From a virus: DNA of 51,677 nt. The notes under the pieces were generated by a model. It was given only the letters and a program-made list of their open reading frames with translations, made no database searches and had not been told where the DNA came from. This document shows, one piece after another, positions 1-42,637 of the stretch. The translations under genes were made by a program, and so were the position numbers. Location of the stretch: positions 1-51,677 of IMG/VR virus record IMGVR_UViG_3300036770_006530. One strand, 5' to 3'. Position 1 is the first letter of the stretch; the number at the start of each line of letters is the position of its first letter.

Positions 1-127
1 CCGGTGGTGACATTGTTGACCTGCGCCGACAGGGCAGTGATGGCGCTGGCATTGGCGCTGTCACCACTTGCCCGTGCCGACGCCTCCGTGGCAATCGCGG
101 CATGGGCGGCGGGCAGACCGGTGGTGA
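1..127. repeat. Terminal overlap copy A (identical to 51551..51677)
   Basis: Compared base by base with the last 127 nt and found identical. The length is typical of an assembler k-mer overlap on a circular contig. Confidence 0.9.
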
Positions 128-4848: not shown

Positions 4849-4849
4849 G

Positions 4850-6943
4850 TCACATCCCGATATTGCGCAGCTTGCCTGTGCGCTTGGCTTCAGCCAATGC
4901 GGCCACGGTACGCTGACCAAAGGTTGAGCGCATTTCGTCCACCATGGCCCGCAGCTGTGCGATTTCCGCCGCCGTGCCGCCGGAGACGGAGAGGTTAAAT
5001 TCCTGTTTCAACGCCACGCCCGTGCCACCGCCCCCGGTACTTTCCGGGGCGATGACACCGGGGCGGATGGGCATGAAGAAACCGGGCGCAGAGCTATCCT
5101 CCGCGCGGCGTTCATTGACCATGTACAGCGTGTCGGGAAACACCTGCCCGCCGGCGGCACGCGGGCCACCGGCGCGGGTCAGGCCACCGAAATCGCGGTT
5201 GCCGAAATAGCCGGCCCCCGACGTGTTGCCCTCCATGACCTTACCGGGGGTCTGACCTGCCCCCATACTGCCGACCCAGGCATTGATGCCCTGGGCGATC
5301 CAGGACCCGATGCCGCCGCCGGTGGATTGCACCATGTACATGCGGATCAGTTCGTTTGCGACATCCATGATGATGGCGCGGACGCTGTCGCCCCAGGACT
5401 GAAACCCCGCCGCCGACCGCTGCAGGTTCTCCTGCAAACTACGGTCGATGGCGTCGCCGACCCGCGTGATGTTCTGCACCTGGGCGCGGGTGTTCGCCTC
5501 GATGATGCGCTTCACATCCGCCGCCTGATCCTCCAGCATCTTGCGCTGCGGCTCGCGCAGCTTGTTCGCATACTCCATCAGCTCACGGGCTGTCTGATCC
5601 AGGCTCTCGCGGGTCGCGCGTTCCTTGTCCCATTTGTCGCTTTCGAACTCGAACGACTGGACAGCCCGGCGGAACTGCGCCTTGGCATCCTTTACAGGGT
5701 CGGCATTGGGGTCGACGTAATCGTCGGCTGGTGTGCCGCCCCATGGCTTAACGACTGAATTGCCGGTGCCCTCCGGTGGTCCGCGCAGCAGGTCAAGGCG
5801 CGCTTGGTATTGGGCGCGCAGTCGCTCAAGGTCGCGGATTTCCTCTTCCAGTGATTGCCCAAACAGGGATCTCGTCCATGCGCTCAGTTGCGCGTCACTG
5901 CCGGCGAGGCCGCCCTGCGCTTGCTTGGCTGCCCAGTCACGCGCCTTAGCGTTCAGAACGCCCAACCGTTCGTCGATCTGCGCCAGCTCGTACAGAACGC
6001 GCTGTTGCCCGATCTCACCGAAGCCCTTGTAACCATCGGCGGCAACGCGGATCCATTTGGCGAAATCTGCCGCCAGCTGCGTCGCCGCAACAATGGAGGG
6101 CGCCAGATCAACAAAGGCCTGATTGAGGTTCAGATCGATGACACGGGACAGGCTGTCCAGTTCCGCCTTGGTCGCGGTGGCCCGGCGCAGAACGCTTTCC
6201 TCAACCACCACGCCCAAGCTCTGCGCCTCTGCCCGAAAGCGGGCAAGGCCGTCAGCCCCCTGTTTCAGCAGTGCGACCAGTTTTTCGCCGCCCTGGTCGC
6301 CGAAAATCTTGTCCGCGATATAGGCTTGTTCCGCTGACGTCTTGACCTGTGAAATACGGCTGGCCACCAGCTGAAACAGGCCTGGCAGATCTTTCAGCTT
6401 CGCCTTCACTTCGTCCTGACTAATGCCCAGCTTCTTGAAGCCCTCCGCCCCCTCACCCGTGCCATCAGCCGCTTCCGCTGCGCGTATCCCCAGCTCCTTC
6501 AACGCTTCATCGGCACTTTCGGCACCGATGCCGACCCGATCCGCAGCAAAGCGCAGTTCCTGCAGGGCGTTGGTCGTAACGCCCAGACGATCAGCGGTTT
6601 TTGCGACATCTGCAAAGCTGTCCACGGCCTGCCGCGCGCGAGCGATTGCGACACCAATACCGATGCTAACCGCCCCTATGCCCGCCGCCGCGACCATCCC
6701 CGCCGGACCAATGGATGAAAGCACATTGCCGACCGGGCCCGCCCTGCCAGCCAGACCTGACAGGCCGGACTGCACTTCCTGGCTTGCCGCATTGACCGCC
6801 TTCAGGCCCCCAGAGGCGGGCTTGGCACCCTCTTCGATGCGCCGGAGGGCCGCTTGGCCATCCTTGCCGAGAGCTTCCAGGGCACGTTTCACCGTGTCCT
6901 GATCCTTGACGGACAAGCGAATGGAGAGGTTGCGTTCGGTCAT
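4850..6943 (-). CDS. Tail tape measure protein
   Basis: 697 aa with long Ala/Gly/Leu-rich helical segments, hydrophobic GIGAVSIGIGVAIA stretches and a Gly-rich C-terminus. It lies downstream of the chaperone pair. Confidence 0.85.
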   Translation of the reverse strand: MTERNLSIRLSVKDQDTVKRALEALGKDGQAALRRIEEGAKPASGGLKAVNAASQEVQSGLSGLAGRAGPVGNVLSSIGPAGMVAAAGIGAVSIGIGVAIARARQAVDSFADVAKTADRLGVTTNALQELRFAADRVGIGAESADEALKELGIRAAEAADGTGEGAEGFKKLGISQDEVKAKLKDLPGLFQLVASRISQVKTSAEQAYIADKIFGDQGGEKLVALLKQGADGLARFRAEAQSLGVVVEESVLRRATATKAELDSLSRVIDLNLNQAFVDLAPSIVAATQLAADFAKWIRVAADGYKGFGEIGQQRVLYELAQIDERLGVLNAKARDWAAKQAQGGLAGSDAQLSAWTRSLFGQSLEEEIRDLERLRAQYQARLDLLRGPPEGTGNSVVKPWGGTPADDYVDPNADPVKDAKAQFRRAVQSFEFESDKWDKERATRESLDQTARELMEYANKLREPQRKMLEDQAADVKRIIEANTRAQVQNITRVGDAIDRSLQENLQRSAAGFQSWGDSVRAIIMDVANELIRMYMVQSTGGGIGSWIAQGINAWVGSMGAGQTPGKVMEGNTSGAGYFGNRDFGGLTRAGGPRAAGGQVFPDTLYMVNERRAEDSSAPGFFMPIRPGVIAPESTGGGGTGVALKQEFNLSVSGGTAAEIAQLRAMVDEMRSTFGQRTVAALAEAKRTGKLRNIGM

Positions 6944-6960
6944 ACTTCACCCATTGTCAC

Positions 6961-6975
6961 GCGAACGCGGTTCGC
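6961..6975. repeat. Dispersed palindrome copy 2 (spacer GCG)
   Basis: Intergenic, about 17 nt upstream of the tape-measure ATG (minus) and 45 nt upstream of the 7020 ATG (plus). Confidence 0.9.
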
Positions 6976-7019
6976 GCACGATTGCCCTAAGTGGTATGGG
7001 CGGGAGAAAGGCGCAGACG

Positions 7020-7313
7020 ATGACATTTATCTTGCTGCTATTTGTTACCATCACCTGTGGTGCCTATGCGCAAACAGCCAAGGGGCGCACTGGTGCCCTT
7101 TGGGGGGTAATCACTTTCATACTGGGCCTGATCTGGTGGGGCTTCCTTAGCGCTGTGACCTCGCTGCAAGCCCATGTGTTTGCCGGAATTGACGAAACGG
7201 CGATGTCCTTTGCCATGGCGCTGGTTGTCAATGTTCCGCTCTGGCTACTCATGGCCGTTATTGTGGCCACCCTTCCCAAACGTGGGCACGCTTCCCGCGA
7301 CACCCCCCGTTGA
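7020..7313 (+). CDS. Small integral membrane protein (about 3 hydrophobic helices), first gene of a reverse-oriented cassette
   Basis: ATG at 7020 preceded by GGGAGAAAGG. Hydrophobic stretches include FILLLFVTITCGAY, LWGVITFILGLIWWGFLSAV and LVVNVPLWLLMAVIVATL. The local sequence is visibly less GC-rich. Confidence 0.55.
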   Translation: MTFILLLFVTITCGAYAQTAKGRTGALWGVITFILGLIWWGFLSAVTSLQAHVFAGIDETAMSFAMALVVNVPLWLLMAVIVATLPKRGHASRDTPR

Positions 7314-7324
7314 TAGAGGCGTCT

Positions 7325-8098
7325 ATGTCAGGTCTGATCGTCTTCTGTCTTGTCATGGTTGTGGTCGTGTTCTTTGTCGCGGGGCCGGGTCGGCGCAGCC
7401 ACGAAGCCCCGGTAAAGAGAGACCCCATCAGCGACAGGGCCAAGGCCAGCATGGGCAAGGTCCTGCTGGACGGGCTTTCCTTGCAATGGAACATCCTTTA
7501 CCGGGACAGCAAGGGCGACCTTGTTGCCCGCGACATCACCGTCCGAGCGTTCATCGGTCGCAAGATTCCTTACTATGCGCAGGCGTTCTGCCATCTTCGG
7601 CAAGAAGAACGGCAATTCCAGTTCGACCGGATGGAGCGTGTCACCGACAAAGGGACGGGGCGGACAATCCGGTATCCGGGGGAATATGCCCGGTCCTATT
7701 GGGATGAAGCGCGTGGATACCTGAAAGCTGGCTCCACCTATCAGCGATACCTTGCACCACCTCCACCACCGCCGCCCCCACCACCGCCGCCACCCGTCAC
7801 GGTAGCCCATCTGTTAGATCCTGCAAGGCGGATCGGTATCCGGTGGGAGGAGGTGGATTTCACAGTGGAGGTAGCAGAGCACGGGTTGGTAAAGGATCGA
7901 CCTTATATCCGGGGCTGGGCAAAGCGGGCAGCGTTGGAGGGTAAACGGGCATGGTCCGGCAATAAGACGTTTGCCCTTCATCAACCGCACAGCCTGTTCG
8001 ATGCCGACACTGGGGAGGCCATTGCCAGCCTTGCCGACTGGTTGCGGACGGCTGAAGATCGGCCCGCTGGCGAAGGCTACCCGCCAGCATCATCCTGA
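7325..8098 (+). CDS. Membrane-anchored protein with two WYL-like beta-rich modules joined by a 13-proline linker
   Basis: ATG at 7325 with GAGG 6 nt upstream. N-terminal TM segment LIVFCLVMVVVVFFVAG. WYL-like signature YYAQAFCHLRQEERQFQFDRMERV. 13 consecutive Pro codons at 7757..7795. A second module reads YIRGWAKR...KTFALHQPHSLFD. Confidence 0.6.
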   Translation: MSGLIVFCLVMVVVVFFVAGPGRRSHEAPVKRDPISDRAKASMGKVLLDGLSLQWNILYRDSKGDLVARDITVRAFIGRKIPYYAQAFCHLRQEERQFQFDRMERVTDKGTGRTIRYPGEYARSYWDEARGYLKAGSTYQRYLAPPPPPPPPPPPPPVTVAHLLDPARRIGIRWEEVDFTVEVAEHGLVKDRPYIRGWAKRAALEGKRAWSGNKTFALHQPHSLFDADTGEAIASLADWLRTAEDRPAGEGYPPASS

Positions 8099-8451
8099 CG
8101 TTCAGACGCCTTCTCCAGCACGGCCTGCACCACCGGCCCCTCTGCGGCCTGGGCCAGCACCTTCACGGCATCGGCATCGATGTCCGCCGGCAGACGGGCC
8201 AGCAGCTGCGGCAGGTCCAAACCCGTGACTGTCCCGCCCATGCCGGCACGCAGCCAGCAGCCGGGCGATTGCAGGGCGGCATCCAGGGCGTGCCCCTCGA
8301 TGCTGGTCGGTGCCAGATCGATGCGGGGGCAGCGTTCGCCCTTGACCGTTCTGCCCCCATCCGCGCAGGGCGCGCCTTCATCCCGGCAGGATTTGCAGTA
8401 ATTGGCGCCGCCCCTTATGTCCCAGGCGAGGCGACGCCCGATGCGTTTCCC
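8077..8451 (-). CDS. T-like extension of the tail assembly chaperone, reached by a -1 frameshift (GT fusion spans 8077..8876)
   Basis: The -1 frame is open from the slippery site to the TAG at 8079..8077 and has no start codon of its own. It shows GC3-rich codon usage. Translation reads GGKRIGRRLAWDIRGGANYCKSCRDEGAPCADGG...VLEKASERQDDAGG. Confidence 0.7.
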   Translation of the reverse strand, partial: GKRIGRRLAWDIRGGANYCKSCRDEGAPCADGGRTVKGERCPRIDLAPTSIEGHALDAALQSPGCWLRAGMGGTVTGLDLPQLLARLPADIDADAVKVLAQAAEGPVVQAVLEKASERQDDAGG

Positions 8452-8876
8452 TCCGTCACCGCCTTGGATAGCGGGGCCAGATACTGATCAAGGAACTTCG
8501 CCGGCAGGTCGGGCCATTTCATCAGTTCGGCGATGATGGCGGGCGACACCGGCACTACCTGACCCGTCCCCGGATCCTCCACAGCCGCACCGCCCCATTC
8601 GATCACGGCCAATTCGGCCAGGGCCACCGCGTAGGCCGTGATGGAATGACCATGGGCCGCGTCCGGATCGGACAGGTCCAAAAGGCCCGTCACGTCGCCG
8701 CCGGCGGACACCACAGCCGTCACCTGTTCGGCCAAGGCCTTGCCCGCCGCGTATGCCTTGGCCTTTGCCGCCTCAATCAGCGGAGACATTGGCGGGCGCA
8801 CGCGCAGCCACAGTGGATAGGGCAGGCCCTCAATGTCGATGCGCGCCGGCCCCTTTGGCATTGTCAGGCGGATCAT
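8415..8876 (-). CDS. Tail assembly chaperone (lambda G-like)
   Basis: 153 aa lying between the tail tube gene and the tape measure. ATGA overlap with the upstream gene. Contains a slippery heptamer 10 codons before its stop. Confidence 0.75.
   Translation of the reverse strand: MIRLTMPKGPARIDIEGLPYPLWLRVRPPMSPLIEAAKAKAYAAGKALAEQVTAVVSAGGDVTGLLDLSDPDAAHGHSITAYAVALAELAVIEWGGAAVEDPGTGQVVPVSPAIIAELMKWPDLPAKFLDQYLAPLSKAVTEGNASGVASPGT
8445..8451 (-). promoter_or_regulatory. -1 programmed ribosomal frameshift slippery heptamer G GGA AAC
   Basis: GTTTCCC on the plus strand equals GGGAAAC on the minus strand. It sits in the X XXY YYZ phase of the 8415..8876 frame (codon low positions 8448 and 8445). 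Confidence 0.75.
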
Positions 8877-9829
8877 GCGTAGCTCTCCGTCTGGTTTTTC
8901 AGCGTCACCACCAGCATGGCACCATCCGCTGGTGTCTTTTCCCCCCGCACCTGGAAGGATTGCTGGATGCCGGCAGGCCCGGTAATCGACAGGCCGGTGC
9001 GTTGCAGACGCACCGTATTGGCCGCGATGGTCAGGGACCTGTTGGCATCGATGGCCCAGGCGGTGGAGATGCCGACGGGCGTGCCGACCGCCGCCTTGTC
9101 CAGCAAGGCATCCGTGTCGAAGCGCAGGTCGAGGCTGCCGGTCAGGGTGGACAGGCCTTCGTCCACTTCCTGCACTTCGTTTTGCAGATAGGTCTGCGGA
9201 TCCAGGTTGTTGGAATAGGTCAGGCTGCCGCCGACGATGCGGGCCACGGCATTGCCATCGACCGTGATGGTGCGCGCCTTGCGCAGCAGCCGCGTGCCGG
9301 GGGCGGGTGCCCCGGCAGGTGTGCCCGCACCGGTTTCCGTCAGCTTGGTAACCTTGGCACCCATCATGCCGAAAGTGGCACGCTCCACACCGCCGGTCGC
9401 AAATTGCAGCTGCATGGTGTTGGCCATCAGATCCAGGACCTGATCAATGCGGCGCGTGTGATCCAGGCGCGGCGTTTGCAGCTCCAGCGTATAGACAGGC
9501 AGGCCGAACTGCCCGGATTTCCAGACATGGGTGAAATTGCCACCCGTACCGGTGGTGACCGGATTGCCCAACAGCATGGTCAGCAAATGGCCAATCGAAT
9601 GCAGATAGAAGGGCGCGACCAGATCGCCGCCCACCGTCAAGGCATCGGTGTCGGGGCTGTCAGGGTCGCGACCCTGACCAATGCCCAGGGTGCGTTCGTC
9701 CGTCAGCGCCTCTGACGGCAGGATCGTATGAGAGAAGAAAGGCAGCGTGTGATAATTGCCCGTCGCCGCCGTTTTCCGCACGGTCTGACGGCCCAGATAG
9801 GCCAAGGCCTCGACGCCCATACCCGACAT
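8873..9829 (-). CDS. Major tail (tube) protein
   Basis: The track ORF was trimmed to the third ATG of an ATGATGATG run, 6 nt after AAGGAG (9836..9841). About 318 aa, located immediately upstream of the chaperone pair. Confidence 0.7.
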   Translation of the reverse strand: MSGMGVEALAYLGRQTVRKTAATGNYHTLPFFSHTILPSEALTDERTLGIGQGRDPDSPDTDALTVGGDLVAPFYLHSIGHLLTMLLGNPVTTGTGGNFTHVWKSGQFGLPVYTLELQTPRLDHTRRIDQVLDLMANTMQLQFATGGVERATFGMMGAKVTKLTETGAGTPAGAPAPGTRLLRKARTITVDGNAVARIVGGSLTYSNNLDPQTYLQNEVQEVDEGLSTLTGSLDLRFDTDALLDKAAVGTPVGISTAWAIDANRSLTIAANTVRLQRTGLSITGPAGIQQSFQVRGEKTPADGAMLVVTLKNQTESYA

Positions 9830-9840
9830 CATCATCTCCT

Positions 9841-10278
9841 TCAGGCGCGGGTGAACCCCAGCGCATCGGTGGTGGCAAAATAGAAAGCCACGGGCACCAT
9901 GGCCTGGCGTTCCGTGTGGTTGCCTTCGACAGGGTCTTCGGCAATGTCCGTCAGCGGCTCCATCTCCGCGTAATCGACAGTGCCGCCCATGGTGGGATCG
10001 CCGCTGATCAGTGTGGCGACAGCGGATAACAGGCCATCGGTGGTGGCGCGGCGACCGGTCCCGGCGGCCCGAATTTCGATCTCCGCAACCCATCGCCAAT
10101 GGTAAGTGCGGGGCGAAAGGCTTTCTTCTTCCACTTGGCCATCGCCATCAAACAGCAGCACGGCCCCGGCGGCGGTGAGCGTGATCGGTTTGTCCGGTTC
10201 GCGCTTCACCGTGGCGAGCGGGATGGTTTGCAGGTGCTGGTGCAACCGCTCCAGCCCGGCATCAATGACGCGCGGCAT
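9841..10278 (-). CDS. Tail completion / tail terminator-like protein
   Basis: ATG at 10278 in a TGAcATG junction. 145 aa. Assigned by synteny between the neck and tube genes. Confidence 0.45.
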   Translation of the reverse strand: MPRVIDAGLERLHQHLQTIPLATVKREPDKPITLTAAGAVLLFDGDGQVEEESLSPRTYHWRWVAEIEIRAAGTGRRATTDGLLSAVATLISGDPTMGGTVDYAEMEPLTDIAEDPVEGNHTERQAMVPVAFYFATTDALGFTRA

Positions 10279-10279
10279 G

Positions 10280-11020
10280 TCACCCCCCGCTTTCCAGATG
10301 TTGCAGCAGTTTGGCCGGCAGGCTGGCAAAGGCCCGCTGCGTGACCGCGTCCAGATCCAGGCGGCGGGCGATCTGGACCTTGGGCACCAGCAGGAACATG
10401 GGCAGCCAGCCCTGTTTCTGCATTTGGGCAACCCGTTTGCGGCGGCCACTGCCCAGCAGCTGCCGGTCATGGTTGTTGCCCCGGAACACACGGGTCTGCA
10501 CCCGACCGTTACGGCTTTTGGCGTAGGCTGTGGTCAAGCGGATGCACCACATCAGGGCGCCATTGGCGACCCGAATGGTGAAGGTCATCTTCTTGTCGGC
10601 CAGCATCTTCTCCGGCGTGACGATGACGCGCCCCTGACGTCCCGCCTGCCGCTGGCCCTGTCGCAGGTTATAGCCCGTGGGGATGGCCAGATACCGTCCG
10701 CCACCACCAGGGGTGATGACGGCACCCTGTGACAGGTTCTGCAAGGCGGCCACGGCGCTGCCGATCTGTCCTTGTTTGCCGGCCCGCACGAAAACCAGCC
10801 CCGCCGCACCGCGCGAAAGCCGTCCGCGCGGGTAGGTTTCCGCGCGCACGGCATTGGCAAGGCGGGTGGACAGGCCGGCGCGGCGTATTTGCGCCCGCCA
10901 GCCTGTCTTGATCTCCTCAGATGCCTCTTTGACCGCCCGCGTGATGGCACGGCGCTGTGCCGCCAGTTCCGCTCCCATGAATTCTTCGAGATTGCCTTCC
11001 AAAGCGGACCCGAAGCGCAT
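10280..11020 (-). CDS. Neck/head-tail connector protein (HK97 gp10-like position)
   Basis: ATG at 11020 (MRFGSALEGNLEEF). Trimmed from the track ORF 10280..11107, which would overlap the upstream gene. Confidence 0.45.
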   Translation of the reverse strand: MRFGSALEGNLEEFMGAELAAQRRAITRAVKEASEEIKTGWRAQIRRAGLSTRLANAVRAETYPRGRLSRGAAGLVFVRAGKQGQIGSAVAALQNLSQGAVITPGGGGRYLAIPTGYNLRQGQRQAGRQGRVIVTPEKMLADKKMTFTIRVANGALMWCIRLTTAYAKSRNGRVQTRVFRGNNHDRQLLGSGRRKRVAQMQKQGWLPMFLLVPKVQIARRLDLDAVTQRAFASLPAKLLQHLESGG

Positions 11021-11033
11021 GGCAGTTGCCCTT

Positions 11034-11354
11034 TCACGTCGCCGGAACGCAGTCCAGCAGCCAGATTTCCGGCTGTTTGGGGTCTGGGCGGCGATCTTGC
11101 AGTTCAAAGCCGCCCAGACCGGTCACCACCAGGCCGCATTCGGGCTGGGGATCGGGCCATTCGGCGCGGCGCACCTCAAACACGAACAGATCAGTCGCAA
11201 CGCTGGACGCCTGGAAGACGTTTTGCGTGGCGGTTGGGGCCTGACGGATGACGCGGACGGCAAACGCCGTCCCGTCCGTGGGGGTTACCGTGGCCATCAC
11301 GCCGATTTTGGCGTGGAGCGGCCGCAGCAAGTGCCCATCCCAGTCGATATCCAT
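11034..11354 (-). CDS. Head-tail joining protein (FII-like position)
   Basis: 106 aa located between the capsid and neck genes. Confidence 0.45.
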   Translation of the reverse strand: MDIDWDGHLLRPLHAKIGVMATVTPTDGTAFAVRVIRQAPTATQNVFQASSVATDLFVFEVRRAEWPDPQPECGLVVTGLGGFELQDRRPDPKQPEIWLLDCVPAT

Positions 11355-11355
11355 G

Positions 11356-11370
11356 GCGAACCACGTTCGC
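11356..11370. repeat. Dispersed palindrome copy 3 (spacer CAC)
   Basis: Ends 1 nt upstream of the ATG of 11034..11354. Confidence 0.9.
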
Positions 11371-11371
11371 G

Positions 11372-11629: not shown

Positions 11630-11648
11630 CGTAGAGCCTCCAAATGAC

Positions 11649-11671: not shown

Positions 11672-11700
11672 GTGTCAGGGGAAATGGGTGGGTGTGGCGG

Positions 11701-25397: not shown

Positions 25398-25457
25398 GGG
25401 GCGGACCACCAACTGAACATCCTCTCCCCCGGCACTGCCAGAATGGAGCGCCCAGAA

Positions 25458-25883
25458 ATGCTTAAGATCGCCTACCCGGCAATCTTCATCGCCCCGGATG
25501 CTAACTGCTCTTCCTACAGCGTCCTGTTCCCCGACCTGCCCGGATGCATCTCGGCAGGGAACAGCCTCGAACACGCCTTCCTGATGGCGGGTGAAGCCCT
25601 TGAACTCCACCTGGACGGCATGGCGCAGGACGATGAAAAGCGGCCTGCCCCGTCCAGCCTGGAACAGGCGCGCCGCCTGTTCATCACGGACTATGAAGGC
25701 AGCAACGATCTCATCGCCGCTGTGCAGCTGGTGCCGGCCAAGGTGCCCGGCCGCACCACCCGCATCAATGTCTCGTTGGACCAGAACCTGGTCGAACAGA
25801 TCGATGCGATCACCGACAACCGTTCTGCCTTCCTGACCATCGCCGCCCGGGCCGAACTGGCCCGACGCCGCACCGCCGCCTGA
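25458..25883 (+). CDS. hicB: HicB antitoxin with a C-terminal RHH-like DNA-binding tail
   Basis: MLKIAYPAIFIAPDANCSSYSVLFPDLPGCISAGNSLEHA. The C-terminal RINVSLDQNLVEQIDAI is RHH-like. An alternative start exists at 25443. Confidence 0.8.
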   Translation: MLKIAYPAIFIAPDANCSSYSVLFPDLPGCISAGNSLEHAFLMAGEALELHLDGMAQDDEKRPAPSSLEQARRLFITDYEGSNDLIAAVQLVPAKVPGRTTRINVSLDQNLVEQIDAITDNRSAFLTIAARAELARRRTAA

Positions 25884-31695: not shown

Positions 31696-34296
31696 ATGGC
31701 CAACGCAGCCGTTAAACAGGACCCTGCCGCCCTTGTGGCCGAAGCCATTACCGATCTCCAGCGTGTTGCCGATGCCGCCGCCACCCTGACGGAACCGCGC
31801 GCTGGTGAGACGAAGGGCGACTATGTCCGCCGCATGCGCCAGGAACGGGGCATGTCGGCCAAACAGTTCGCGACCGCCGCCAGCATCACGGCCAAACAGG
31901 CAGGCCAGGCCGAAAGCGACCCTGACAAGTTGGGCAACCTGAATGACTGGCTTCGAATTGAACGCACCCTGGACATCCCGACCTACACCCTGTCCCATTG
32001 GGGTCAGGCGAAACCCGACAAGCCCGACAACGCCTTCGGTCGCGCCAAAGACAAGCCCCATGAAGGCGAAACGCGTGGCGACTATCTCCAGCGCATCCTG
32101 ACCCTGCGTGAAATGGATACCGAACAGCTGGCGGATATGCTGGTCCTGGATCCGGACGAGGTGCGCCAGGCGGTGGAAGAGCCGTGGCGGCACCTCTATG
32201 GCCAGGATGTGTTGTGGGAGGCGATTGCCACCGGCCTGAACCTGCCGGTGGATTACATCCTGTCCACACCGGTTCATGCCCCGGTGGCGGACCTCTCCCC
32301 CACGATGGATCGCGACGCGTCCGCCACGCCGGCCGACGCGGCACCGATGCCAACGGCAGAGAATGGCGCCGTCATTGCCTTGGCTGTCGATCAGATCAAG
32401 CCGCAGAACTATCGCCGGACCTTTTCAACGGCCTCGCTGACGGAGCTGGCGCAAAGTCTTGCCGCACAGGGGCAGCTGCAACCCGTTCTGGTGCGCCCTG
32501 CCCCCGGCCATTGGGCGTTGATCGCCGGCGAACGCCGGTGGCGCGCGGCGCAGCTGGGGATCGAACAGGGCATCCTGCCCGCCACCTTCACCCTGAATGC
32601 CACCGTCCGCACCGACATCGATGCCGACGCGCATGTCTTGGCCAGCTTGGTCGAAAACCTTCAGCGCGAAGACGTACCCCCGCTGGAGGAGGCCGAAGCC
32701 CTGGCCCTGGCCCGCAAGCGGTGGAGCGCGACAGAGATCGCCAAGGCCATCAGCAAGACGCCGCGCTTCATCCAGCAGCGGCTGGCCCTGGTGGAGAAAC
32801 TGTCCGGCCCGACCAAACAGGCTTTGGCCGATGGCGACATCACGGTAACCTTTGCCCGCCTCCTGGCTCGCGTAGGCCCTGCGACACAGGCCGAATTGCT
32901 GGTGGAAATCCGCCGCGGATATTTCGGTACGGCAAAGCAGCTGGAGGAACGCATCCAGCGCCTGACCTTCGATCCCGATAAGGCCATCTTCAGTCCGCTG
33001 CTCTATAACGGACCAACCATCACCGACGAAGATAACAAGCTCTGGTACACCGACCTTGGGCTGGTGAAGAAACTTCAACTCGAAGCGGCCAAAGACAAGG
33101 CGGCCGAGCTCCGGCAACAGGGCTATGGCTATGTAGAGGTCATTGAGGGCGGGCACTTTAGCGCCGTCGATGGCGGTTACTACATGCAAGAGCGGAACCT
33201 GACCATTCGCAAGGGCGACCGCCCCTTGCCCGCCGGCGCCCACCGCGCCGCCATCATCGCCATCAAGAATGACCTGTCGGTGGAAATCCACGCGAACCTG
33301 GTTCGCACGGACACGAAGCCCACCTCGCCCAAGGCCAAGGCCGCCGCCGCTGGCACCATCGTTGACCCGTCACAGTTGGTGGGCGAAGGACAGAGGCTCT
33401 ACGCGGAAAAGGCCCGCACCCGCGCCTTGCAGGCCGCGATCATGCGCGATGAACAGGCCCAGATGGCCGTGGTGGCCATCGGCATGTTGCAGAAGGCCAG
33501 CTGGGGTCAGCCCATCAGCTTTCGCGATGAACATTGGCCTCCACACCGCCTGACGGTTCTGCCGGCTTTAAGCGAACAGTTGCAGGAGGTGTTGGACACC
33601 TATCCCGGACTGTTGGCGGACCTGACAAAGGAACCGCGCGGCGGCGTTGGCGACCGCCTGGATAAGGCTGAACACCCGCAGGTGGTCCTGTGGCACACAC
33701 TGATGACCATGGAGTATGAGGACCTGGTCGCGCTGATCGGGCTGTTGGCCGCCGCCCGCGTCATGGCCGGCAATGGCGGTTTTGAGTTGGGCGAACAGGA
33801 CCTCTGCATCGCCATGGCCGACAGCCTGAACGTCCAGATGGACGTCAAATGGCAGATCGATGCCGAATACCTGTCGACCCTGAAGAAGCCGCAGCTGATC
33901 GCGCTGGCCCATGCCATCGGCATGTTCACCATGGCCCGGCAGATGGCAGACGGCGCCAAGAAGGAACACACGCAGCGCGGGGCCTTCACCGGCCTGAAGA
34001 TGGCCGCAATGGCCGCCGCCATCCTGGATTATGTGCAGACCCACAATATCCGCTATGTCCCGCCGGAGCTGCGCTTCCTGCGCAAGGATGAAGCGGTAGA
34101 GCGTACCCGCGCCGAACTCGCCGATGGCGCTCCATGCAGCTGGATTGAGAATGGCCCCGCCGATCCCGCCCCACCCCATCCGGCCTGGGCACGCCAGCCG
34201 ACGGCGCCGCCGCCACTGACCCCGACAGAACCCGACGATGACGCCGGCGACGACGATGGCGACGTCGAAGATCTCGACACCGACGAAGCCGCCTGA
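31696..34296 (+). CDS. Large ParB/Srx N-terminal-domain protein (866 aa) with duplicated HTH-like N-terminal segments and a long uncharacterised C-terminal region
   Basis: AAGGAGG SD. ParB box LIAGERRWRAAQL and LVENLQREDV. Confidence 0.75.
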   Translation: MANAAVKQDPAALVAEAITDLQRVADAAATLTEPRAGETKGDYVRRMRQERGMSAKQFATAASITAKQAGQAESDPDKLGNLNDWLRIERTLDIPTYTLSHWGQAKPDKPDNAFGRAKDKPHEGETRGDYLQRILTLREMDTEQLADMLVLDPDEVRQAVEEPWRHLYGQDVLWEAIATGLNLPVDYILSTPVHAPVADLSPTMDRDASATPADAAPMPTAENGAVIALAVDQIKPQNYRRTFSTASLTELAQSLAAQGQLQPVLVRPAPGHWALIAGERRWRAAQLGIEQGILPATFTLNATVRTDIDADAHVLASLVENLQREDVPPLEEAEALALARKRWSATEIAKAISKTPRFIQQRLALVEKLSGPTKQALADGDITVTFARLLARVGPATQAELLVEIRRGYFGTAKQLEERIQRLTFDPDKAIFSPLLYNGPTITDEDNKLWYTDLGLVKKLQLEAAKDKAAELRQQGYGYVEVIEGGHFSAVDGGYYMQERNLTIRKGDRPLPAGAHRAAIIAIKNDLSVEIHANLVRTDTKPTSPKAKAAAAGTIVDPSQLVGEGQRLYAEKARTRALQAAIMRDEQAQMAVVAIGMLQKASWGQPISFRDEHWPPHRLTVLPALSEQLQEVLDTYPGLLADLTKEPRGGVGDRLDKAEHPQVVLWHTLMTMEYEDLVALIGLLAAARVMAGNGGFELGEQDLCIAMADSLNVQMDVKWQIDAEYLSTLKKPQLIALAHAIGMFTMARQMADGAKKEHTQRGAFTGLKMAAMAAAILDYVQTHNIRYVPPELRFLRKDEAVERTRAELADGAPCSWIENGPADPAPPHPAWARQPTAPPPLTPTEPDDDAGDDDGDVEDLDTDEAA
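33292..33306. repeat. Dispersed palindrome copy 10 (spacer CTG)
   Basis: Inside the ParB-like CDS. Confidence 0.9.
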
Positions 34297-39265: not shown

Positions 39266-39580
39266 TCAGCCCTTCAGGCCGAGGACTTGCTCCCGGTACA
39301 GCTTCCACGCAGCCTCGATGACGACACCCTGCGTGGTACCTAGGCGCGCCGCCTCTGCAGAGATCTCCGCCGACACATCTGGCAGCACCTTTGCGTGCAC
39401 CTGCCCCGTGCGCGGGCTCGCGGCCCGCCCCCGCTTGCCCGCCGGCACGCGGGCGACGAAGCCGCGCGCCTCCCCCACAGCGTCCAGCTCGCGTGCGACA
39501 GTGATCGGAATCTCGGGCCGCTCCACCTTCTTCAAGCCGCCCAGGTTCACGCCAAAGCCCTTCTTTACCCCTTCGGTCAT
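39266..39580 (-). CDS. Small centromere-binding partner of ParA (ParG/RHH-like)
   Basis: 104 aa with an ATGA overlap to parA. The C-terminal VLPDVSAEISAEAARLGTTQGVVIEAAWKLY is RHH-like. Confidence 0.55.
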   Translation of the reverse strand: MTEGVKKGFGVNLGGLKKVERPEIPITVARELDAVGEARGFVARVPAGKRGRAASPRTGQVHAKVLPDVSAEISAEAARLGTTQGVVIEAAWKLYREQVLGLKG

Positions 39581-40251
39581 CCCGCTCCCCCCGTCAGCCG
39601 GTTCACGATCTGCTGGGCAAACGCCTGAGCGTTTTCAATTGCCCGGTCCATATTACCACCCTGCCCTTCTGGCATGGTCCGCAGGTCACCGCCAAAGTTA
39701 AACAGTGCGGAGAAGCCAGCACGCTGCGCCAGCGACGGTTGGATAACATCCACACCTTGTTCGATCAGGCTGGCCTCGATCCCGCGATGTTCCTTGGATT
39801 GAATGGCGCTGGTCATTGTGAAGACGACGGCATGACGGATGGCCCGCCCCAACGTCTCCTCCTCCTCCTTGATCAACTCCAGCGCACGGCTGCCCACGGT
39901 GGCATCCAGCGTGGTGGCGCGCATGGGGATTATGACCAGATCGGCCCGCGCAATGGCCCGCGTCATGAGCCGGGAGGCTACCCCTTCCAGATCGACGATG
40001 ACGATCTTGCCGTCGCCATCAGCGTCCTTGAGTGCTTGGATGACATCATTCTCGGTCATGCCTTTGCTTGACACGCACCGGATACGAGGCGGCAAGGGGG
40101 CCTGGGAGGCCCAGAGAATGATGGACTGGTTGGGATCGCAATCAACCAGGGTCACATCCGCGCCGGCATGCGCCAGCTCGGTGGCCAGAACGACTGCCGA
40201 TGTGGACTTTCCAGCACCCCCTTTGGGGCTGGCGAACACGATGGTGGGCAT
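39577..40251 (-). CDS. parA: ParA/Soj-family partition ATPase (type Ib size)
   Basis: MPTIVFASPKGGAGKSTSAVVLA is a deviant Walker A. 224 aa. Confidence 0.85.
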   Translation of the reverse strand: MPTIVFASPKGGAGKSTSAVVLATELAHAGADVTLVDCDPNQSIILWASQAPLPPRIRCVSSKGMTENDVIQALKDADGDGKIVIVDLEGVASRLMTRAIARADLVIIPMRATTLDATVGSRALELIKEEEETLGRAIRHAVVFTMTSAIQSKEHRGIEASLIEQGVDVIQPSLAQRAGFSALFNFGGDLRTMPEGQGGNMDRAIENAQAFAQQIVNRLTGGAG

Positions 40252-40689: not shown

Positions 40690-41616
40690 ATGGGCGCCAT
40701 TAGCGAACAAGTTGACCTGTTCCTCGACAGCCTGATCAATGCGCCTGTCAAGGATGATCAGGCCCTGATGCAGTTTCCATTCTTCTCGCTGCAAAAGCAG
40801 CCGCGCATGGAACCAATGGTTTTCGAGCGCGACGGCATCGTTGTCAGGATCACCCCAGGCCCTAAGGGTATCGCCACCATCTGGGACAAGGACGTCCTGA
40901 TGTACCTGGCCAGCAGCATCAATGACCGCATCGAACGCAACCTCCCCGTTGACCGAACCGTCAGGTTCCACGCCTACGACCTTCTGCGGGTCACGCGTCG
41001 CGCCGGCAACCGCGCCTCCAAGAAGGATTATGAGGCACTGAAGGATGCACTGTTCCGGCTGCGCTCCACCACTATCGAAACGACCATCAAGTCGGCTGAT
41101 AGCCGCGAAGAACGTGGCTTCGGATGGATCGATAACTGGCGGATCGTGCGGCGCGACGCCAAGGCCGGGGAGGAGGAGGGGGCAATGGCAGCGGTTGAGG
41201 TCACCCTTAACGATTGGATGTTCCGTGCAATCGTCAGGGACCGCCGCGTCCTCACCATCAACCCCAACTACTTCAGCCTGACAAAGGGCCTGGAACGCCG
41301 CCTCTATGAATTGGCACGGAAGCATTGCGGGCACCAACGGCGGTGGGACATCTCGCTGGAAAAGCTGATTGAGAAGTGCGGTTCGACCCGCGAGTTACGG
41401 TTCTTCAAGCGCGACCTGAAGACCATCATCGAGATGGACACCTTGCCGGACTACTCGATCTCCATGTCGTTCGACCCGGCAGAGCGCAAAGAGGTTGAGG
41501 CAGCTGGCATGGATGGGCGGAGATGGTCCTCCAATGAACGGATCATTGTGTCGTTCCACCGCCGGGGCAAGGTCGGCACCGACTACATTGACCACGAGGC
41601 TGTGGACAGAATGTGA
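40690..41616 (+). CDS. repA: Plasmid replication initiator, RPA (replication initiator protein A) family
   Basis: 308 aa. LMQFPFFSLQKQPR is an N-terminal motif typical of alphaproteobacterial RPA-type initiators. Flanked by iterons. Confidence 0.8.
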   Translation: MGAISEQVDLFLDSLINAPVKDDQALMQFPFFSLQKQPRMEPMVFERDGIVVRITPGPKGIATIWDKDVLMYLASSINDRIERNLPVDRTVRFHAYDLLRVTRRAGNRASKKDYEALKDALFRLRSTTIETTIKSADSREERGFGWIDNWRIVRRDAKAGEEEGAMAAVEVTLNDWMFRAIVRDRRVLTINPNYFSLTKGLERRLYELARKHCGHQRRWDISLEKLIEKCGSTRELRFFKRDLKTIIEMDTLPDYSISMSFDPAERKEVEAAGMDGRRWSSNERIIVSFHRRGKVGTDYIDHEAVDRM

Positions 41617-41997: not shown

Positions 41998-42083
41998 TTG
42001 GTGCAAAAGTTAGGAGTTTCGCACCAAACGCAAGCGACTGCCACAGAAGGGCTTTTTTGGTGCAAAAGTCCGGTGCATATTGG
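41998..42083 (+). promoter_or_regulatory. Candidate res/crossover sites: TTGGTGCAAAAGT direct repeat (41998, 42057); the first copy forms an imperfect inverted repeat TGGTGCAAAA-N8-TTTCGCACCA
   Basis: Read directly from the sequence, immediately upstream of the serine recombinase gene. Confidence 0.4.
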
Positions 42084-42088
42084 CCCGC

Positions 42089-42637
42089 ATGATTTACGGC
42101 TATGCACGCGTATCGACCGACGGACAAAGTGTGGAAGCGCAGGTGGAGGCGCTGACCGCAGCAGGTGCCGCCAAGGTCTACCGGGAGGTGGCCAGCGGGG
42201 CGAAAAGCGACCGCGCCCAGCTCCGCCGCGTCATCGATGCATTGGACCCCGACGATGTTCTGCTGGTGACGCGCTTGGATCGACTGGCCCGCACCACCCG
42301 CGATCTGTTGAACATCCTGGCAGAGGTGGCGGGGAAGGGGGCAGGCTTCCGGTCGCTGGCGGATGCATGGGCCGACACCACCACACCACATGGCCGCCTG
42401 ATGCTGACCTTCCTGGGCGGCCTGGCGGAGTTTGAACGCGAGCTGATCACCGCCCGCACCAGCGAGGGCAGGGCGCGCGCGAAGGCGAGAGGCGTTCACA
42501 TGGGGCGTAAGCCTAAGCTGACCCCGCATCAGATGCGGGAAGCACTCGCGCGCCGGCAGGCAGGGGAGGGGGTCAGGGAGATCGCTCTGTCTTACAATGT
42601 CAGCCACAGCACGATATCCAGGCTGAGACGCGAGTGA
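42089..42637 (+). CDS. Serine recombinase (resolvase/invertase family)
   Basis: MIYGYARVSTDGQSVEAQ catalytic N-terminus and a C-terminal HTH (IALSYNVSHSTISRL). Confidence 0.85.
   Translation: MIYGYARVSTDGQSVEAQVEALTAAGAAKVYREVASGAKSDRAQLRRVIDALDPDDVLLVTRLDRLARTTRDLLNILAEVAGKGAGFRSLADAWADTTTPHGRLMLTFLGGLAEFERELITARTSEGRARAKARGVHMGRKPKLTPHQMREALARRQAGEGVREIALSYNVSHSTISRLRRE

What the first reader, a model, noticed from the sequence alone, without database searches (positions are those of the whole stretch)
6944..8098. Reverse-oriented two-gene cassette (3-TM protein plus membrane-anchored tandem WYL-like protein with a 13-proline linker) splitting the tail chaperone from the tape measure
In lambda-like tails the G/GT chaperone and tape-measure genes are adjacent. 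Here they are separated by two plus-strand genes (7020..7313 and 7325..8098) in a visibly less GC-rich patch. The 3' end of the second gene overlaps the GT 3' end by 22 nt (8077..8098), so transcription is convergent. The 257-aa protein has one N-terminal TM helix followed by a module with a WYL-like signature (YYAQAFCHLRQEERQFQFDRMERV). Then come 13 consecutive prolines (7757..7795), likely EF-P dependent and stall-prone, and a second similar module. WYL domains are known ligand sensors attached to defence regulators. A membrane-tethered tandem WYL protein without an HTH or effector, paired with a small polytopic membrane protein, is not an arrangement I recognise. I infer a lysogen-expressed moron for superinfection exclusion, abortive infection or envelope sensing. 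One GCGAAC-N3-GTTCGC copy lies in its putative promoter.
Basis: partly seen in the sequence, partly recalled or inferred. Interest (0 to 1): 0.75.

Follow-up and report, generated by a model that had tools for sequence, protein, structure and literature searches.

The report
Membrane-anchored WYL moron in tail operon
Two separately acquired accessory genes sit backwards between the tail-chaperone and tape-measure genes of a temperate phage-plasmid, in the slot where the first phage "moron" was described. One encodes a membrane-anchored WYL sensor protein of an uncharacterised family that recurs, always antisense, in the tail modules of related alphaproteobacterial prophages, which makes it a good but untested candidate for phage-against-phage defence.

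Summary
Two plus-strand genes (7020..7313 and 7325..8098) sit in a lower-GC patch between G/GT (stop at 8077, a 22-nt convergent overlap) and the tape-measure gene (start 6943). The 13 prolines are at 7757..7795.

ORF-B consists of an N-terminal TM helix, a true WYL domain, a linker and a second small Sm/SH3-like beta-barrel. That second barrel is only weakly WYL-like. ORF-B has no HTH and no enzymatic effector.

The "two-gene cassette" reading fails. Close relatives carry ORF-B alone (L001) or ORF-A alone (L009, L010) in the same slot, so these are separable morons. The poly-proline is unique to this allele (L001 has APRP).

The location is the textbook HK97 gene-15 moron slot. What is new is the ORF-B family: about 25 clusters share TM (in most), WYL and C-terminal barrel. 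In nine loci spanning about seven phage or prophage lineages with readable flanks, the gene lies antisense inside a siphophage tail module, often divergent from the tape-measure gene.

Function is inferred, not shown. The most likely role is a cytoplasm-facing membrane sensor used for superinfection exclusion or abortive infection. The GCGAAC-N3-GTTCGC palindrome fills the spacer of a conserved candidate promoter, so the genes may instead be repressed in lysogens.

Interest is moderate. This is a new variant of a known kind.

The parts
4850..6943 (-). Tape-measure protein gene, the downstream neighbour in the late tail operon
   Evidence: phrog_10574 3.7e-43 and Pfam PhageMin_Tail 2.6e-10. It is 94% identical to the TMP of L009/L010.
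6954..6982 (+). Candidate promoter for the plus-strand genes: TTGTCA (6954-6959), N17, CACGAT (6977-6982). It is weak and not verified.
   Evidence: The pattern TTGTNN-N17-NANNAT is conserved upstream of ORF-A in L009/L010 and upstream of ORF-B homologues in L001 and L016. It falls below the threshold of the consensus scan, which found no promoter.
6961..6975 (.). Palindrome GCGAACGCGGTTCGC in the divergent TMP/ORF-A intergenic region. It fills the spacer of the candidate promoter and lies 18 nt upstream of the TMP ATG.
   Evidence: The window holds 14 copies against 0.24 expected. A copy lies 35-36 nt upstream of the ORF-B-homologue ATG in L001 and L015-L017, and 44-45 nt upstream of the ORF-A ATG in the window and L009.
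7020..7313 (+). ORF-A: a 97-aa small membrane protein with three predicted TM segments (about residues 2-16, 26-46 and 62-84). Charge distribution suggests N-out/C-in. It is an independent moron.
   Evidence: Hydropathy. Homologues are P0119 (62% identity, in L009/L010, alone in the same slot) and P0120 (40%). dN/dS is 0.18. There are no significant Pfam, NCBIfam or PADLOC hits, and only a weak match to phrog_9201 (unknown function, E 0.003).
7325..8098 (+). ORF-B: a 257-aa membrane-anchored protein with a WYL domain and a C-terminal small barrel
   Evidence: AlphaFold2 model with mean pLDDT 81. Family search results. dN/dS is 0.13 against L001.
7328..7381 (+). N-terminal TM helix (residues 2-19), followed by the basic stretch GPGRRSHEAPVKR. 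By the positive-inside rule the rest of the protein faces the cytoplasm.
   Evidence: Hydropathy of 2.8-3.0. A helix at residues 2-18 in the model. The same TM-then-basic pattern appears in most family members.
7457..7669 (+). WYL domain (beta-barrel, residues 45-115), followed by a helix at residues 118-129
   Evidence: Pfam WYL gives 4.9e-4, 20.5 bits, just under the gathering score of 21.8. Ten of 16 family members hit WYL, best 4e-8. The family profile matches PDB WYL proteins: PafBC 5e-6, 8bnv 8e-6, CapW 7e-4. PADLOC WYL models give 5e-7 and 2e-6. Foldseek matches the BrxR, PafBC and CapW WYL domains over 57-62 residues at rmsd 2.1-2.8 A with probability 1.0. Y59, R69, G78, C89, R96 and F98 are invariant.
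7757..7795 (+). Thirteen consecutive proline codons (residues 145-157) in the inter-domain linker
   Evidence: Read directly from the sequence. The run contains a 15-nt tandem duplication, CCACCACCGCCGCC(C/A). The region is disordered in the model. It is absent from all relatives; L001 has APRP at this position.
7802..7999 (+). C-terminal small beta-barrel (residues 160-225) with the motif RGxAxR...RxWxGxKTF...D..TGE, followed by a helix at residues 236-244
   Evidence: pLDDT is about 90. The best Foldseek matches are the Pelota/Dom34 N-terminal domain, Sm/LSm proteins (both Sm-fold) and chromo/Tudor barrels; none is significant and none is a WYL domain. There is no PDB sequence hit. Similarity to the WYL C-terminus is weak.
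8077..8098 (.). The 22-nt convergent overlap between the ORF-B 3' end and the GT 3' end
   Evidence: Homologues also end against the 3' end of a tail gene: L009 (6 nt) and L020 (7 nt, against the tube gene).
8077..8876 (-). Tail assembly chaperone G (8415..8876) and its -1 frameshift product GT (slippery G GGA AAC at 8451..8445; T frame runs to 8077)
   Evidence: phrog_313 is a weak match.

Best explanation
The locus is not one cassette. It is two independently acquired accessory (moron-type) genes placed antisense at the tail-chaperone/tape-measure junction of a complete, circular temperate phage that looks like a phage-plasmid.

ORF-A is a small three-TM inner-membrane protein. In position and in physical character it matches HK97 gp15.

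ORF-B is anchored in the inner membrane by one N-terminal helix. It presents two small beta-barrels to the cytoplasm: a genuine WYL domain (the ligand or ssDNA/RNA-sensing Sm-like fold of BrxR, CapW and PafBC) and a second Sm/SH3-like barrel. A linker joins them, and in this allele the linker has expanded to 13 prolines.

ORF-B belongs to an uncharacterised family. Members are found antisense inside siphophage tail modules, or beside cI/cro-like genes, in alphaproteobacterial prophages.

The most likely role is inferred, not shown. I propose a phage-encoded protein, expressed independently of the late operon, that protects the carrier cell against other phages. It would sense a nucleic-acid or nucleotide cue at the cytoplasmic face of the membrane, where phage DNA enters, and then either block genome entry or establishment (superinfection exclusion) or perturb the membrane.

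Transcription probably starts at a weak conserved promoter whose spacer is filled by the phage-wide palindrome GCGAAC-N3-GTTCGC. Expression is therefore probably tied to whichever phage regulator binds that site.
For: Anatomy (shown).
- ORFs, overlap, GC dip and G/GT frameshift.
- Purifying selection on both ORFs, dN/dS 0.13 and 0.18.
- WYL identity of domain 1 from four independent lines.
- A confident two-barrel model.
- Basic residues after the TM helix, in this protein and across the family.

Separability (shown).
- L001 has ORF-B only. L009 and L010 have ORF-A only.
- The accessory genes are 62-65% identical, while flanking structural proteins are 81-94% identical. Their dS is also higher. 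This is the mosaic pattern expected of morons.

Conserved placement (shown).
- ORF-B homologues lie antisense within homologous tail modules in L001, L015-L017, L019, L020, L021, L022, L024 and L026.
- They lie beside cI/cro-like HTH genes in L018 and L023, and beside an S24 repressor in L008.
- The same slots hold BRO-N-like antirepressor genes, toxin-antitoxin pairs, a lipoprotein and another TM protein. These are hot spots for accessory genes.

Lifestyle.
- The window encodes a ParA-like protein, a replication initiator, a ParB-like protein, HicB, HTH repressor-like proteins and an invertase. No integrase turned up among the ORFs that were scanned, which were not all of them.
- The contig ends share 127 bp, so the contig is a circular genome.

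Precedent.
- HK97 gene 15 lies between the chaperone and TMP genes. It encodes a small inner-membrane superinfection-exclusion protein whose effect depends on the incoming tail (PMC3594210).
- WYL domains of defence regulators bind ssDNA (PMC11662680, abstract) and were predicted to bind nucleotides or nucleic-acid fragments (PMC4012209).

Regulatory element.
- The spacing from palindrome to ATG is conserved across lineages whose ORF-B proteins are only about 40% identical.
Against: - There are no expression data and no phenotype.
- No PADLOC defence-system model matches beyond the generic WYL domain.
- No sigma-70 consensus promoter and no terminator were found flanking the cassette. The moron criterion of an own promoter and terminator is therefore unproven.
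- A palindrome in a promoter spacer is the classic position of a repressor operator. The window has 14 such sites. If the lysogeny repressor or a KorB-like ParB binds them, these genes would be off in lysogens.
- Strong conservation of ORF-B inside tail modules, across lineages whose tube and chaperone proteins are only 27-37% identical, could mean the gene serves the phage's own cycle rather than being a dispensable moron.
- Some family members lack a TM helix (P0010, P0013), so membrane anchoring is not universal.
- The ligand is unknown, and the protein has no recognisable effector.
Confidence: 0.45

Rival explanations
1. Own-cycle function. ORF-B, and perhaps ORF-A, would be repressed in the lysogen through the palindromic operator and expressed after induction or infection. 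It would then serve the phage itself. Possible roles are excluding superinfecting phages during lytic growth, sequestering ssDNA or nucleotide signals to blunt host defences, or coordinating DNA or tape-measure events at the membrane. Under this reading it is a conserved accessory gene of this phage lineage, not a lysogenic-conversion moron.
For: The palindrome fills the spacer of the conserved candidate promoter, and the window has 14 copies, mostly just upstream of gene starts. ORF-B is conserved in tail modules across lineages with only 27-37% identical tube and chaperone proteins, and is often divergent from the TMP gene. Small stand-alone WYL proteins are common in lytic and temperate phages (BFVD hits).
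Against: The antisense orientation inside a late operon argues against co-expression with tail genes. L009 and L010 lack ORF-B although their structural genes are 89-94% identical (tube 89%, G 90%, TMP 94%), so it is dispensable for virion production. Relatives sit next to cI/cro or S24 repressor genes, a typical lysogeny-expressed position. Other relatives lie in non-phage chromosomal contexts next to a toxin-antitoxin pair.
Confidence: 0.25
2. Abortive-infection effector-sensor in one polypeptide. Ligand binding by the cytoplasmic barrels would drive oligomerisation of the single TM helix and collapse the membrane potential.
For: The protein has a TM helix and ligand-binding barrels but no other effector. 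WYL and Sm-like barrels tend to form multimeric rings (PMC4012209). Sixty-three of the 110 WYL relatives recovered carry at least one TM segment ahead of the WYL domain.
Against: A single TM helix is a minimal effector. No cyclase or other signal generator lies nearby in any locus. Some family members have no TM helix.
Confidence: 0.15
3. ORF-A and ORF-B would form an obligate two-component system, with a polytopic membrane partner plus a tethered tandem-WYL sensor.
For: The two genes are 11 nt apart on the same strand in the window. Some relatives also have a non-homologous envelope-protein gene directly upstream of the WYL gene: a lipoprotein in L020 and a 184-aa protein with a hydrophobic N-terminus in L003. 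P0020 and P0021 fuse a two-TM module with a similar A-x-x-K-G/N-R-S/T...W loop to a WYL domain.
Against: Each gene occurs alone in the same slot in the closest relatives. Most family loci have no upstream membrane-protein gene. The similarity of ORF-A to the P0020/P0021 N-termini is not significant (E 0.1 and 6.5 in single comparisons).
Confidence: 0.08
4. Host-physiology conversion unrelated to phages. The products could, for example, sense or modulate envelope stress or DNA damage for the benefit of the lysogen.
For: Relatives combine the same WYL subtype with TerB-like stress-associated domains (P0117 carries PF05099; others). One relative is chromosomal and not in a prophage.
Against: Nothing points to a specific host pathway. 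The preferred locations, tail modules and immunity regions, are those of phage-phage conflict genes.
Confidence: 0.07

Closest known systems
HK97 gene 15 moron (gp15, a YebO-like superinfection-exclusion protein)
   Same: It occupies the same slot, inside the tail operon between the tail-tube assembly chaperone genes and the tape-measure gene. It encodes a small inner-membrane protein in a compositionally distinct insertion (PMC3594210).
   Different: There is no sequence relationship; ORF-A gives no YebO hit in Pfam. The genes here are antisense to the tail operon, and a second, much larger gene (ORF-B) is present. No exclusion phenotype has been shown.
wHTH-WYL-WCX defence regulators (BrxR, CapW, PafBC)
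   Same: They share the WYL domain fold and sequence signature, with conserved Arg and Cys residues. In those proteins the WYL domain is a sensor, binding ssDNA in CapW (PMC11662680).
   Different: ORF-B has no HTH and no WCX domain. Its N-terminus is a TM helix and its C-terminus is a different small barrel, so it cannot act as a DNA-binding transcription factor of that type.
Small stand-alone phage WYL proteins and other WYL fusions (TerB, 3'-5' exonuclease, RT-associated WYL in DRT systems)
   Same: They carry the same WYL subtype (CHLR-x-E-x-R-x-F...DRI). Relatives of ORF-B include TM+WYL only, WYL+TerB-like and exonuclease+WYL proteins. TerB and exonuclease fusions are described in PMC4012209.
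   Different: The TM + WYL + C-terminal 'RGxAxR...WxGxKTF' barrel architecture, and its placement in tail modules, are not described in the papers read. The C-terminal barrel matches no Pfam, NCBIfam or PDB sequence model.
Prophage-encoded proteins that act through the incoming tape-measure protein (HK97 gp15; Tab of JBD26)
   Same: They are prophage accessory genes embedded in late operons whose activity depends on the tape-measure protein (PMC3594210; PMC10884400). ORF-B homologues are repeatedly placed next to the TMP gene.
   Different: There is no evidence that ORF-A or ORF-B interacts with any TMP. Tab is an 83-residue protein located between the terminase genes.

Membership tests
WYL domain superfamily (PF13280; Makarova et al. 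2014) | Sequence-profile match to WYL models | tested here: met
   The window protein alone scores 20.5 bits, E 4.9e-4, just below the gathering score of 21.8. At family level, 10 of 16 members hit WYL (best 4e-8). The family profile hits PafBC, 8bnv and CapW at 5e-6 to 7e-4. PADLOC WYL models give 5e-7 and 2e-6.
WYL domain superfamily (PF13280; Makarova et al. 2014) | [quoted passage not shown] | tested here: met
   The model has pLDDT of about 95 over residues 45-115. Foldseek matches the BrxR, PafBC and CapW WYL domains over 57-62 residues at rmsd 2.1-2.8 A with probability 1.0, although the whole-protein E-values are only 0.01-0.1.
WYL domain superfamily (PF13280; Makarova et al. 2014) | Conserved basic residues plus a frequently conserved cysteine lining the predicted ligand groove | tested here: met
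   R69, C89 and R96 are invariant in the 16-sequence alignment, within a consensus CHLR motif. The criterion comes from PMC4012209.
WYL domain superfamily (PF13280; Makarova et al. 2014) | Second module (residues 160-225) is also a WYL domain, i.e. a tandem WYL protein | tested here: inconclusive
   hhalign of domain 1 against domain 2 gives 56% probability over 23 columns. The last 24 positions of the domain-2 HMM weakly cross-hit true WYL C-termini at 12-15 bits. Foldseek on domain 2 finds Sm-fold, chromo and Tudor barrels, none significant (best E 0.28), and no WYL domain.
wHTH-WYL-WCX transcription regulators (BrxR/CapW/PafBC type) | N-terminal winged HTH DNA-binding domain | tested here: not met
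   There are no HTH hits in Pfam or NCBIfam, and the N-terminus is a single hydrophobic helix.
wHTH-WYL-WCX transcription regulators (BrxR/CapW/PafBC type) | C-terminal WCX extension domain | tested here: not met
   Foldseek alignments to BrxR and CapW cover only the 57-62-residue WYL barrel. The C-terminal domain resembles Sm-fold, chromo and Tudor barrels instead.
Moron (Juhala/Hendrix definition, as summarised in PMC3594210) | Extra DNA between genes that are adjacent in related phages | tested here: met
   L012 and L014 have the G/T-like and TMP ORFs adjacent (ORF layout only, not family-scanned). L009/L010 lack ORF-B and L001 lacks ORF-A.
Moron (Juhala/Hendrix definition, as summarised in PMC3594210) | Nucleotide composition different from surrounding genes | tested here: met
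   GC is 0.56-0.60 against about 0.65 for the neighbours. GC3 is 0.62-0.66 against 0.73-0.77.
Moron (Juhala/Hendrix definition, as summarised in PMC3594210) | Own promoter and terminator | tested here: inconclusive
   The consensus scan finds no promoter and no flanking terminator. A weak conserved TTGTCA-N17-CACGAT candidate exists. The 3' end overlaps GT with no terminator.
Moron (Juhala/Hendrix definition, as summarised in PMC3594210) | Expressed from the repressed prophage | not testable with these tools
   This needs strand-specific RNA-seq or a reporter fusion in a lysogen.
HK97 gp15 / YebO-like superinfection-exclusion proteins | Sequence homology to gp15/YebO | tested here: not met
   A Pfam scan of ORF-A at E <= 1 returns no YebO family, only sub-threshold DUF hits.
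HK97 gp15 / YebO-like superinfection-exclusion proteins | Small inner-membrane protein encoded between the tail chaperone and TMP genes | tested here: met
   ORF-A is 97 aa with three hydrophobic segments and sits in that slot. The criterion comes from PMC3594210.
HK97 gp15 / YebO-like superinfection-exclusion proteins | Blocks genome entry of superinfecting phages | not testable with these tools
   This needs phage challenge of cells expressing ORF-A and/or ORF-B.

The most novel reading that the evidence does not exclude
ORF-B would define a new class of phage-encoded exclusion protein: a nucleic-acid-binding WYL/Sm-like module tethered to the cytoplasmic face of the inner membrane. It would capture or sense the single-stranded leading end of an incoming phage genome as it emerges from the tape-measure channel. 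For cos phages with a lambda-type terminase, such as this one, that end could be the cohesive end. The repeated placement of the gene next to the tape-measure gene would then reflect co-evolution between the exclusion protein and the injection machinery.
Probability: 0.12. Interest if true: 0.8.

Novelty: new variant of a known kind. Interest (0 to 1): 0.55.

Why it matters
WYL domains are known almost only as sensor modules of soluble transcription regulators that switch on defence systems. Here the same sensor fold is tethered to the membrane, lacks a DNA-binding or enzymatic partner, and is carried by the phages themselves at a fixed antisense position in their tail operons.

If it is a defence or exclusion protein, it would add a new sensor-at-the-membrane architecture to prophage-encoded immunity. 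It would also give a handle on what cue WYL domains read during infection.

The data also give a clean natural experiment. Nearly identical phages carry ORF-A only, ORF-B only or both, so the contribution of each gene could be tested directly.

Tried and rejected
- **Phage database searches.** Neither a DNA search of 4000-14000 nor a protein search with ORF-B found a match in the GenBank phage collection.
- **IMG/VR scans.** Scans with ORF-B and with G as single proteins found nothing.
- **Word-indexed homology search.** Searching with the 16-sequence alignment saturated at 8000 candidates and added few sequences.
- **Locus search with alignment A1.** The FDPGP subfamily alignment A5 worked instead.
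- **TMP-based genome scan.** It found no close relatives in GTDB genomes.
- **Rfam.** No known RNA family was found anywhere in the window.
- **Fusion lead for ORF-A.** I tested whether ORF-A is homologous to the two-TM N-termini of WYL proteins P0020 and P0021, or to the TM protein in the L026 GT/TMP slot. None was significant, so I dropped this as evidence.
- **Signal peptide in ORF-A.** I considered that the ORF-A N-terminus is a cleaved signal peptide (AYA|Q). I rejected this as less consistent with the positive-inside distribution of charges, but it remains untested.
- **Poly-proline as a functional hallmark.** Rejected, because no relative has it.
- **Palindrome in distant loci.** I looked for the palindrome, or any other 6-bp-arm palindrome, upstream of ORF-B homologues in L019-L026. 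None was found, so the element is specific to the window/L001/L009/L015 phage group.
Full report
**1. What is in the sequence**

The stated coordinates and features all hold. On the minus strand, a lambda-like late operon runs in this order:
- large terminase of the gpA type
- lambda-family portal
- tail tube, 8873..10099 (Phage_tube_2)
- a G-like chaperone, 8415..8876
- the tape-measure gene, 4850..6943 (phrog_10574, 3.7e-43)

The -1 frame downstream of G is open from 8487 to 8077. A G|GGA|AAC slippery heptamer sits at 8451..8445 in the correct phase. GT therefore ends at 8077 and overlaps the ORF-B stop (8096..8098) by 22 nt, convergently.

Between GT and the tape-measure gene lie two plus-strand ORFs with plausible ribosome-binding sites: ORF-A at 7020..7313 and ORF-B at 7325..8098. 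Their patch has GC of 0.56-0.60, against 0.64 for the window. Their GC3 is 0.62-0.66, against 0.73-0.77 for the neighbours. The 13 prolines are residues 145-157, nt 7757..7795.

Both ORFs are real genes. Against their closest homologues, dN/dS is 0.13 for ORF-B and 0.18 for ORF-A.

**2. What ORF-B is**

An AlphaFold2 model built on a 16-sequence alignment has mean pLDDT 81. It shows the following parts:
- an N-terminal helix, residues 2-18
- a beta-barrel at residues 45-115 followed by a helix (pLDDT about 95)
- a disordered linker that contains the proline run
- a second beta-barrel at residues 160-225 followed by a helix (pLDDT about 90)

Basic residues follow the hydrophobic helix, both here and across the family. 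By the positive-inside rule, both barrels face the cytoplasm. This topology is an inference.

The first barrel is a WYL domain, on four lines of evidence:
- The window protein alone falls just under Pfam's gathering score (20.5 against 21.8 bits). However, 10 of 16 family members hit WYL, the best at 4e-8.
- The family profile finds the WYL domains of PafBC, 8bnv and CapW among solved structures, at 5e-6 to 7e-4.
- PADLOC's WYL models match at 5e-7 and 2e-6.
- Foldseek superposes 57-62 residues on BrxR, PafBC and CapW at 2.1-2.8 A with probability 1.0.

The invariant R69, C89 and R96 fit the basic-residues-plus-cysteine pattern described for WYL ligand grooves (PMC4012209).

The second barrel is less clear. 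Modelled alone (pLDDT 84), its best Foldseek matches are the Pelota N-terminal domain, Sm/LSm proteins (both Sm-fold) and chromo/Tudor barrels. None is significant and none is a WYL domain. It has no PDB sequence relative. Its similarity to domain 1 is confined to the last strand and the D..TGE turn (hhalign 56% over 23 columns; weak HMM cross-hits). 'Tandem WYL' is therefore possible but not shown. 'WYL plus a second Sm/SH3-like barrel' is the safer description.

ORF-B has no HTH, no WCX domain and no enzymatic domain.

**3. The family**

A full HMMER scan of 1.84 billion cluster representatives gave 114 hits. I rescanned these 114 together with three extra proteins. Seven of the 114 had matched only through the proline run. 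The other 110 proteins in the set contain the WYL module.

Of these 110:
- 63 have at least one TM segment ahead of the WYL domain
- about 25 share the full architecture with the C-terminal 'RGxAxR...RxWxGxKTF...D..TGE' barrel
- the rest end after the WYL domain, carry TerB-like domains, have two WYL copies, or are fused to a DEDDh exonuclease

TerB and exonuclease fusions of WYL domains are already described. A membrane anchor is not mentioned in the main text of the defining survey (PMC4012209).

No relative has a poly-proline linker. The closest homologue, at 60-65% identity, has APRP at that position. The run contains a 15-nt tandem duplication. It is an allele-specific linker expansion. 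It is probably EF-P dependent (established knowledge), but it is not a feature of the system.

**4. The pair is not a unit**

The closest homologue of ORF-B (P0001, on L001) sits in the same place, divergent from the tape-measure start and convergent with GT. ORF-A is absent there.

The closest homologue of ORF-A (P0119, 62% identity) sits alone in the same slot in L009 and L010, which have no ORF-B. L009 is a stretch of a 51,397-bp contig whose tape-measure protein is 94% identical to the window's.

So the slot holds A+B, B only or A only in otherwise near-identical phages. The accessory genes are far more diverged than their flanks: 62-65% against 81-94% amino-acid identity, with higher dS. 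That is the mosaic signature of independently exchanged morons.

More distant tape-measure relatives (L012, L014) have the chaperone and tape-measure genes adjacent.

**5. Conserved placement of ORF-B**

This was the unexpected result. Homologues were found in a metagenomic phage (L015-L017, 40-44% identity) and in genomes of Oleispirillum, Thalassospira, Rhodospirillaceae, Kordiimonadales and Minwuia (L020-L022, L024, L026; 27-33% identity). All lie antisense within a homologous tail module.

Their positions within the module are:
- convergent with the tube gene and upstream of G (L020, L021, L024, L026)
- divergent from the tape-measure gene (L022, and L019, where the protein has two TM segments, zinc ribbons and a WYL domain)
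- divergent from a DUF6441 gene that precedes the tape-measure gene (L015-L017)

Other relatives sit beside cI/cro-like HTH genes (L018, L023), beside an S24 repressor (L008), or in a chromosome next to a FitA/PIN pair (L003).

The same slots also hold BRO-N-like antirepressor genes, toxin-antitoxin pairs, an XRE regulator, a lipoprotein gene and, in L026, another reverse-oriented TM-protein gene between GT and the tape-measure gene. These are accessory-gene hot spots. Even so, the persistence of this one family in them is more than a one-off insertion.

**6. The host element**

The window's two ends share 127 bp, which indicates a circular, complete genome.

It encodes the following:
- a ParA-like protein
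- a replication initiator
- an 866-aa ParB-like protein
- a serine invertase
- HicB
- HTH repressor-like proteins
- a primase and a methyltransferase

I found no integrase among the ORFs I scanned, which did not cover the whole window. I read the element as a temperate phage-plasmid. This is an inference from gene content.

**7. Regulation**

The palindrome GCGAAC-N3-GTTCGC occurs 14 times against 0.24 expected, mostly just upstream of gene starts on either strand.

The copy at 6961..6975 exactly fills the 17-nt spacer of a weak candidate promoter, TTGTCA-N17-CACGAT. That arrangement is conserved upstream of ORF-A in L009/L010 and upstream of ORF-B homologues in L001 and L016. The distance from palindrome to ATG is fixed: 44-45 nt for ORF-A and 35-36 nt for ORF-B homologues.

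The consensus scan finds no promoter or flanking terminator, so independent transcription is plausible but unproven. An operator in a promoter spacer usually means repression. Whether the binding factor is the lysogeny repressor, a KorB-like ParB or a late regulator decides between the leading explanation and its main rival.

**8. Comparison with what is known**

The location is not novel. [quoted passage not shown] It encodes a small inner-membrane protein that excludes superinfecting phages in a tail-dependent way (PMC3594210). ORF-A is its positional and physical analogue, without sequence similarity.

ORF-B shares its sensor domain with BrxR, CapW and PafBC, which respond to ssDNA (PMC11662680). 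It fails two defining features of that regulator family, the wHTH and the WCX domain.

The TM + WYL + small-barrel architecture matches no full-length Pfam, NCBIfam or PADLOC model. Its tail-module association is not described in the papers I could search.

**9. Verdict**

- The locus is two separable morons in the classic slot.
- One of them belongs to an uncharacterised, membrane-anchored WYL family with a conserved antisense position in the tail modules of alphaproteobacterial temperate phages.
- A role in phage-phage conflict is the best-supported inference (about 0.45).
- An own-cycle role under palindrome control is the main rival (about 0.25).

Noticed in passing
window 3300, 6961, 11356, 16752, 19780 (1 mismatch), 20963, 25041, 26775, 30354, 33292, 38568, 41955, 44557, 47898: The 15-bp palindrome GCGAAC-N3-GTTCGC occurs 14 times against 0.24 expected. 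The arms are conserved and the spacer is free. Most copies lie 2-45 nt upstream of start codons on either strand, and a few are intragenic. It is also present in L001, L009/L010 and L015-L017, but not in L019-L026. It could be a dispersed operator, in the manner of P1 C1 or of KorB/ParB sites on RK2 (both recalled from memory, not checked), or a 6-bp-stem RNA hairpin next to ribosome-binding sites. The binding factor is unknown.
   Followed up: partly
window 1..127 and 51551..51677: The first and last 127 bases are identical, which indicates a circular assembly. The window is probably a complete genome of about 51.55 kb. A related contig is 51,397 bp long (JGI 3300059093, Ga0573895_199).
   Followed up: partly
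window 39577..40251 (-), 40690..41616 (+), 31696..34296 (+), 42080..42637 (+), 25443..25883 (+): These genes encode a ParA-like partition protein, a replication initiator, a large ParB-like protein (866 aa), a serine invertase/resolvase and a HicB-like antitoxin. No integrase turned up among the ORFs scanned. The element looks like a phage-plasmid.
   Followed up: partly
L001 1412..1567 (-): In the ORF-B-only relative, an extra 51-aa minus-strand ORF lies between the GT stop and the ORF-B 3' end, overlapping the latter. It is absent from the window and was not examined further.
   Followed up: no
L026 1541..1969 (+): In a Minwuia prophage, a different reverse-oriented 142-aa multi-TM protein gene occupies the GT/tape-measure slot, while the ORF-B homologue sits between the tube and G genes. 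Unrelated small membrane proteins seem to be recruited repeatedly to this slot.
   Followed up: partly
L020 3991..5229 (-), 5281..5544 (+), 5603..5878 (+); L019 6643..7413 (-), 8118..8761 (+); L026 2977..3792 (-): By eye, the tail-module slots that hold ORF-B homologues also carry BRO-N-like (antirepressor-type) genes, an XRE-type HTH gene, a small lipoprotein gene directly upstream of the WYL gene, and a RelE/HigB-like toxin-antitoxin pair. None of these was scanned against family libraries.
   Followed up: no
P0020, P0021 (relatives of ORF-B); window 7020..7160: Two WYL relatives carry an N-terminal two-TM module whose inter-helix loop (A-x-x-K-G/N-R-S...W) resembles the first loop of ORF-A (AKGRTGALW). 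BLASTP does not support homology (E 0.1 and 6.5). This is a possible fusion lead that would need profile methods.
   Followed up: yes
window 10280..11107 (-) versus L015 7277..7972 (-): The DUF6441 gene lies upstream of the tube gene in the window, but directly before the tape-measure gene in L015-L017. This points to a rearranged tail-gene order between these related phages.
   Followed up: no
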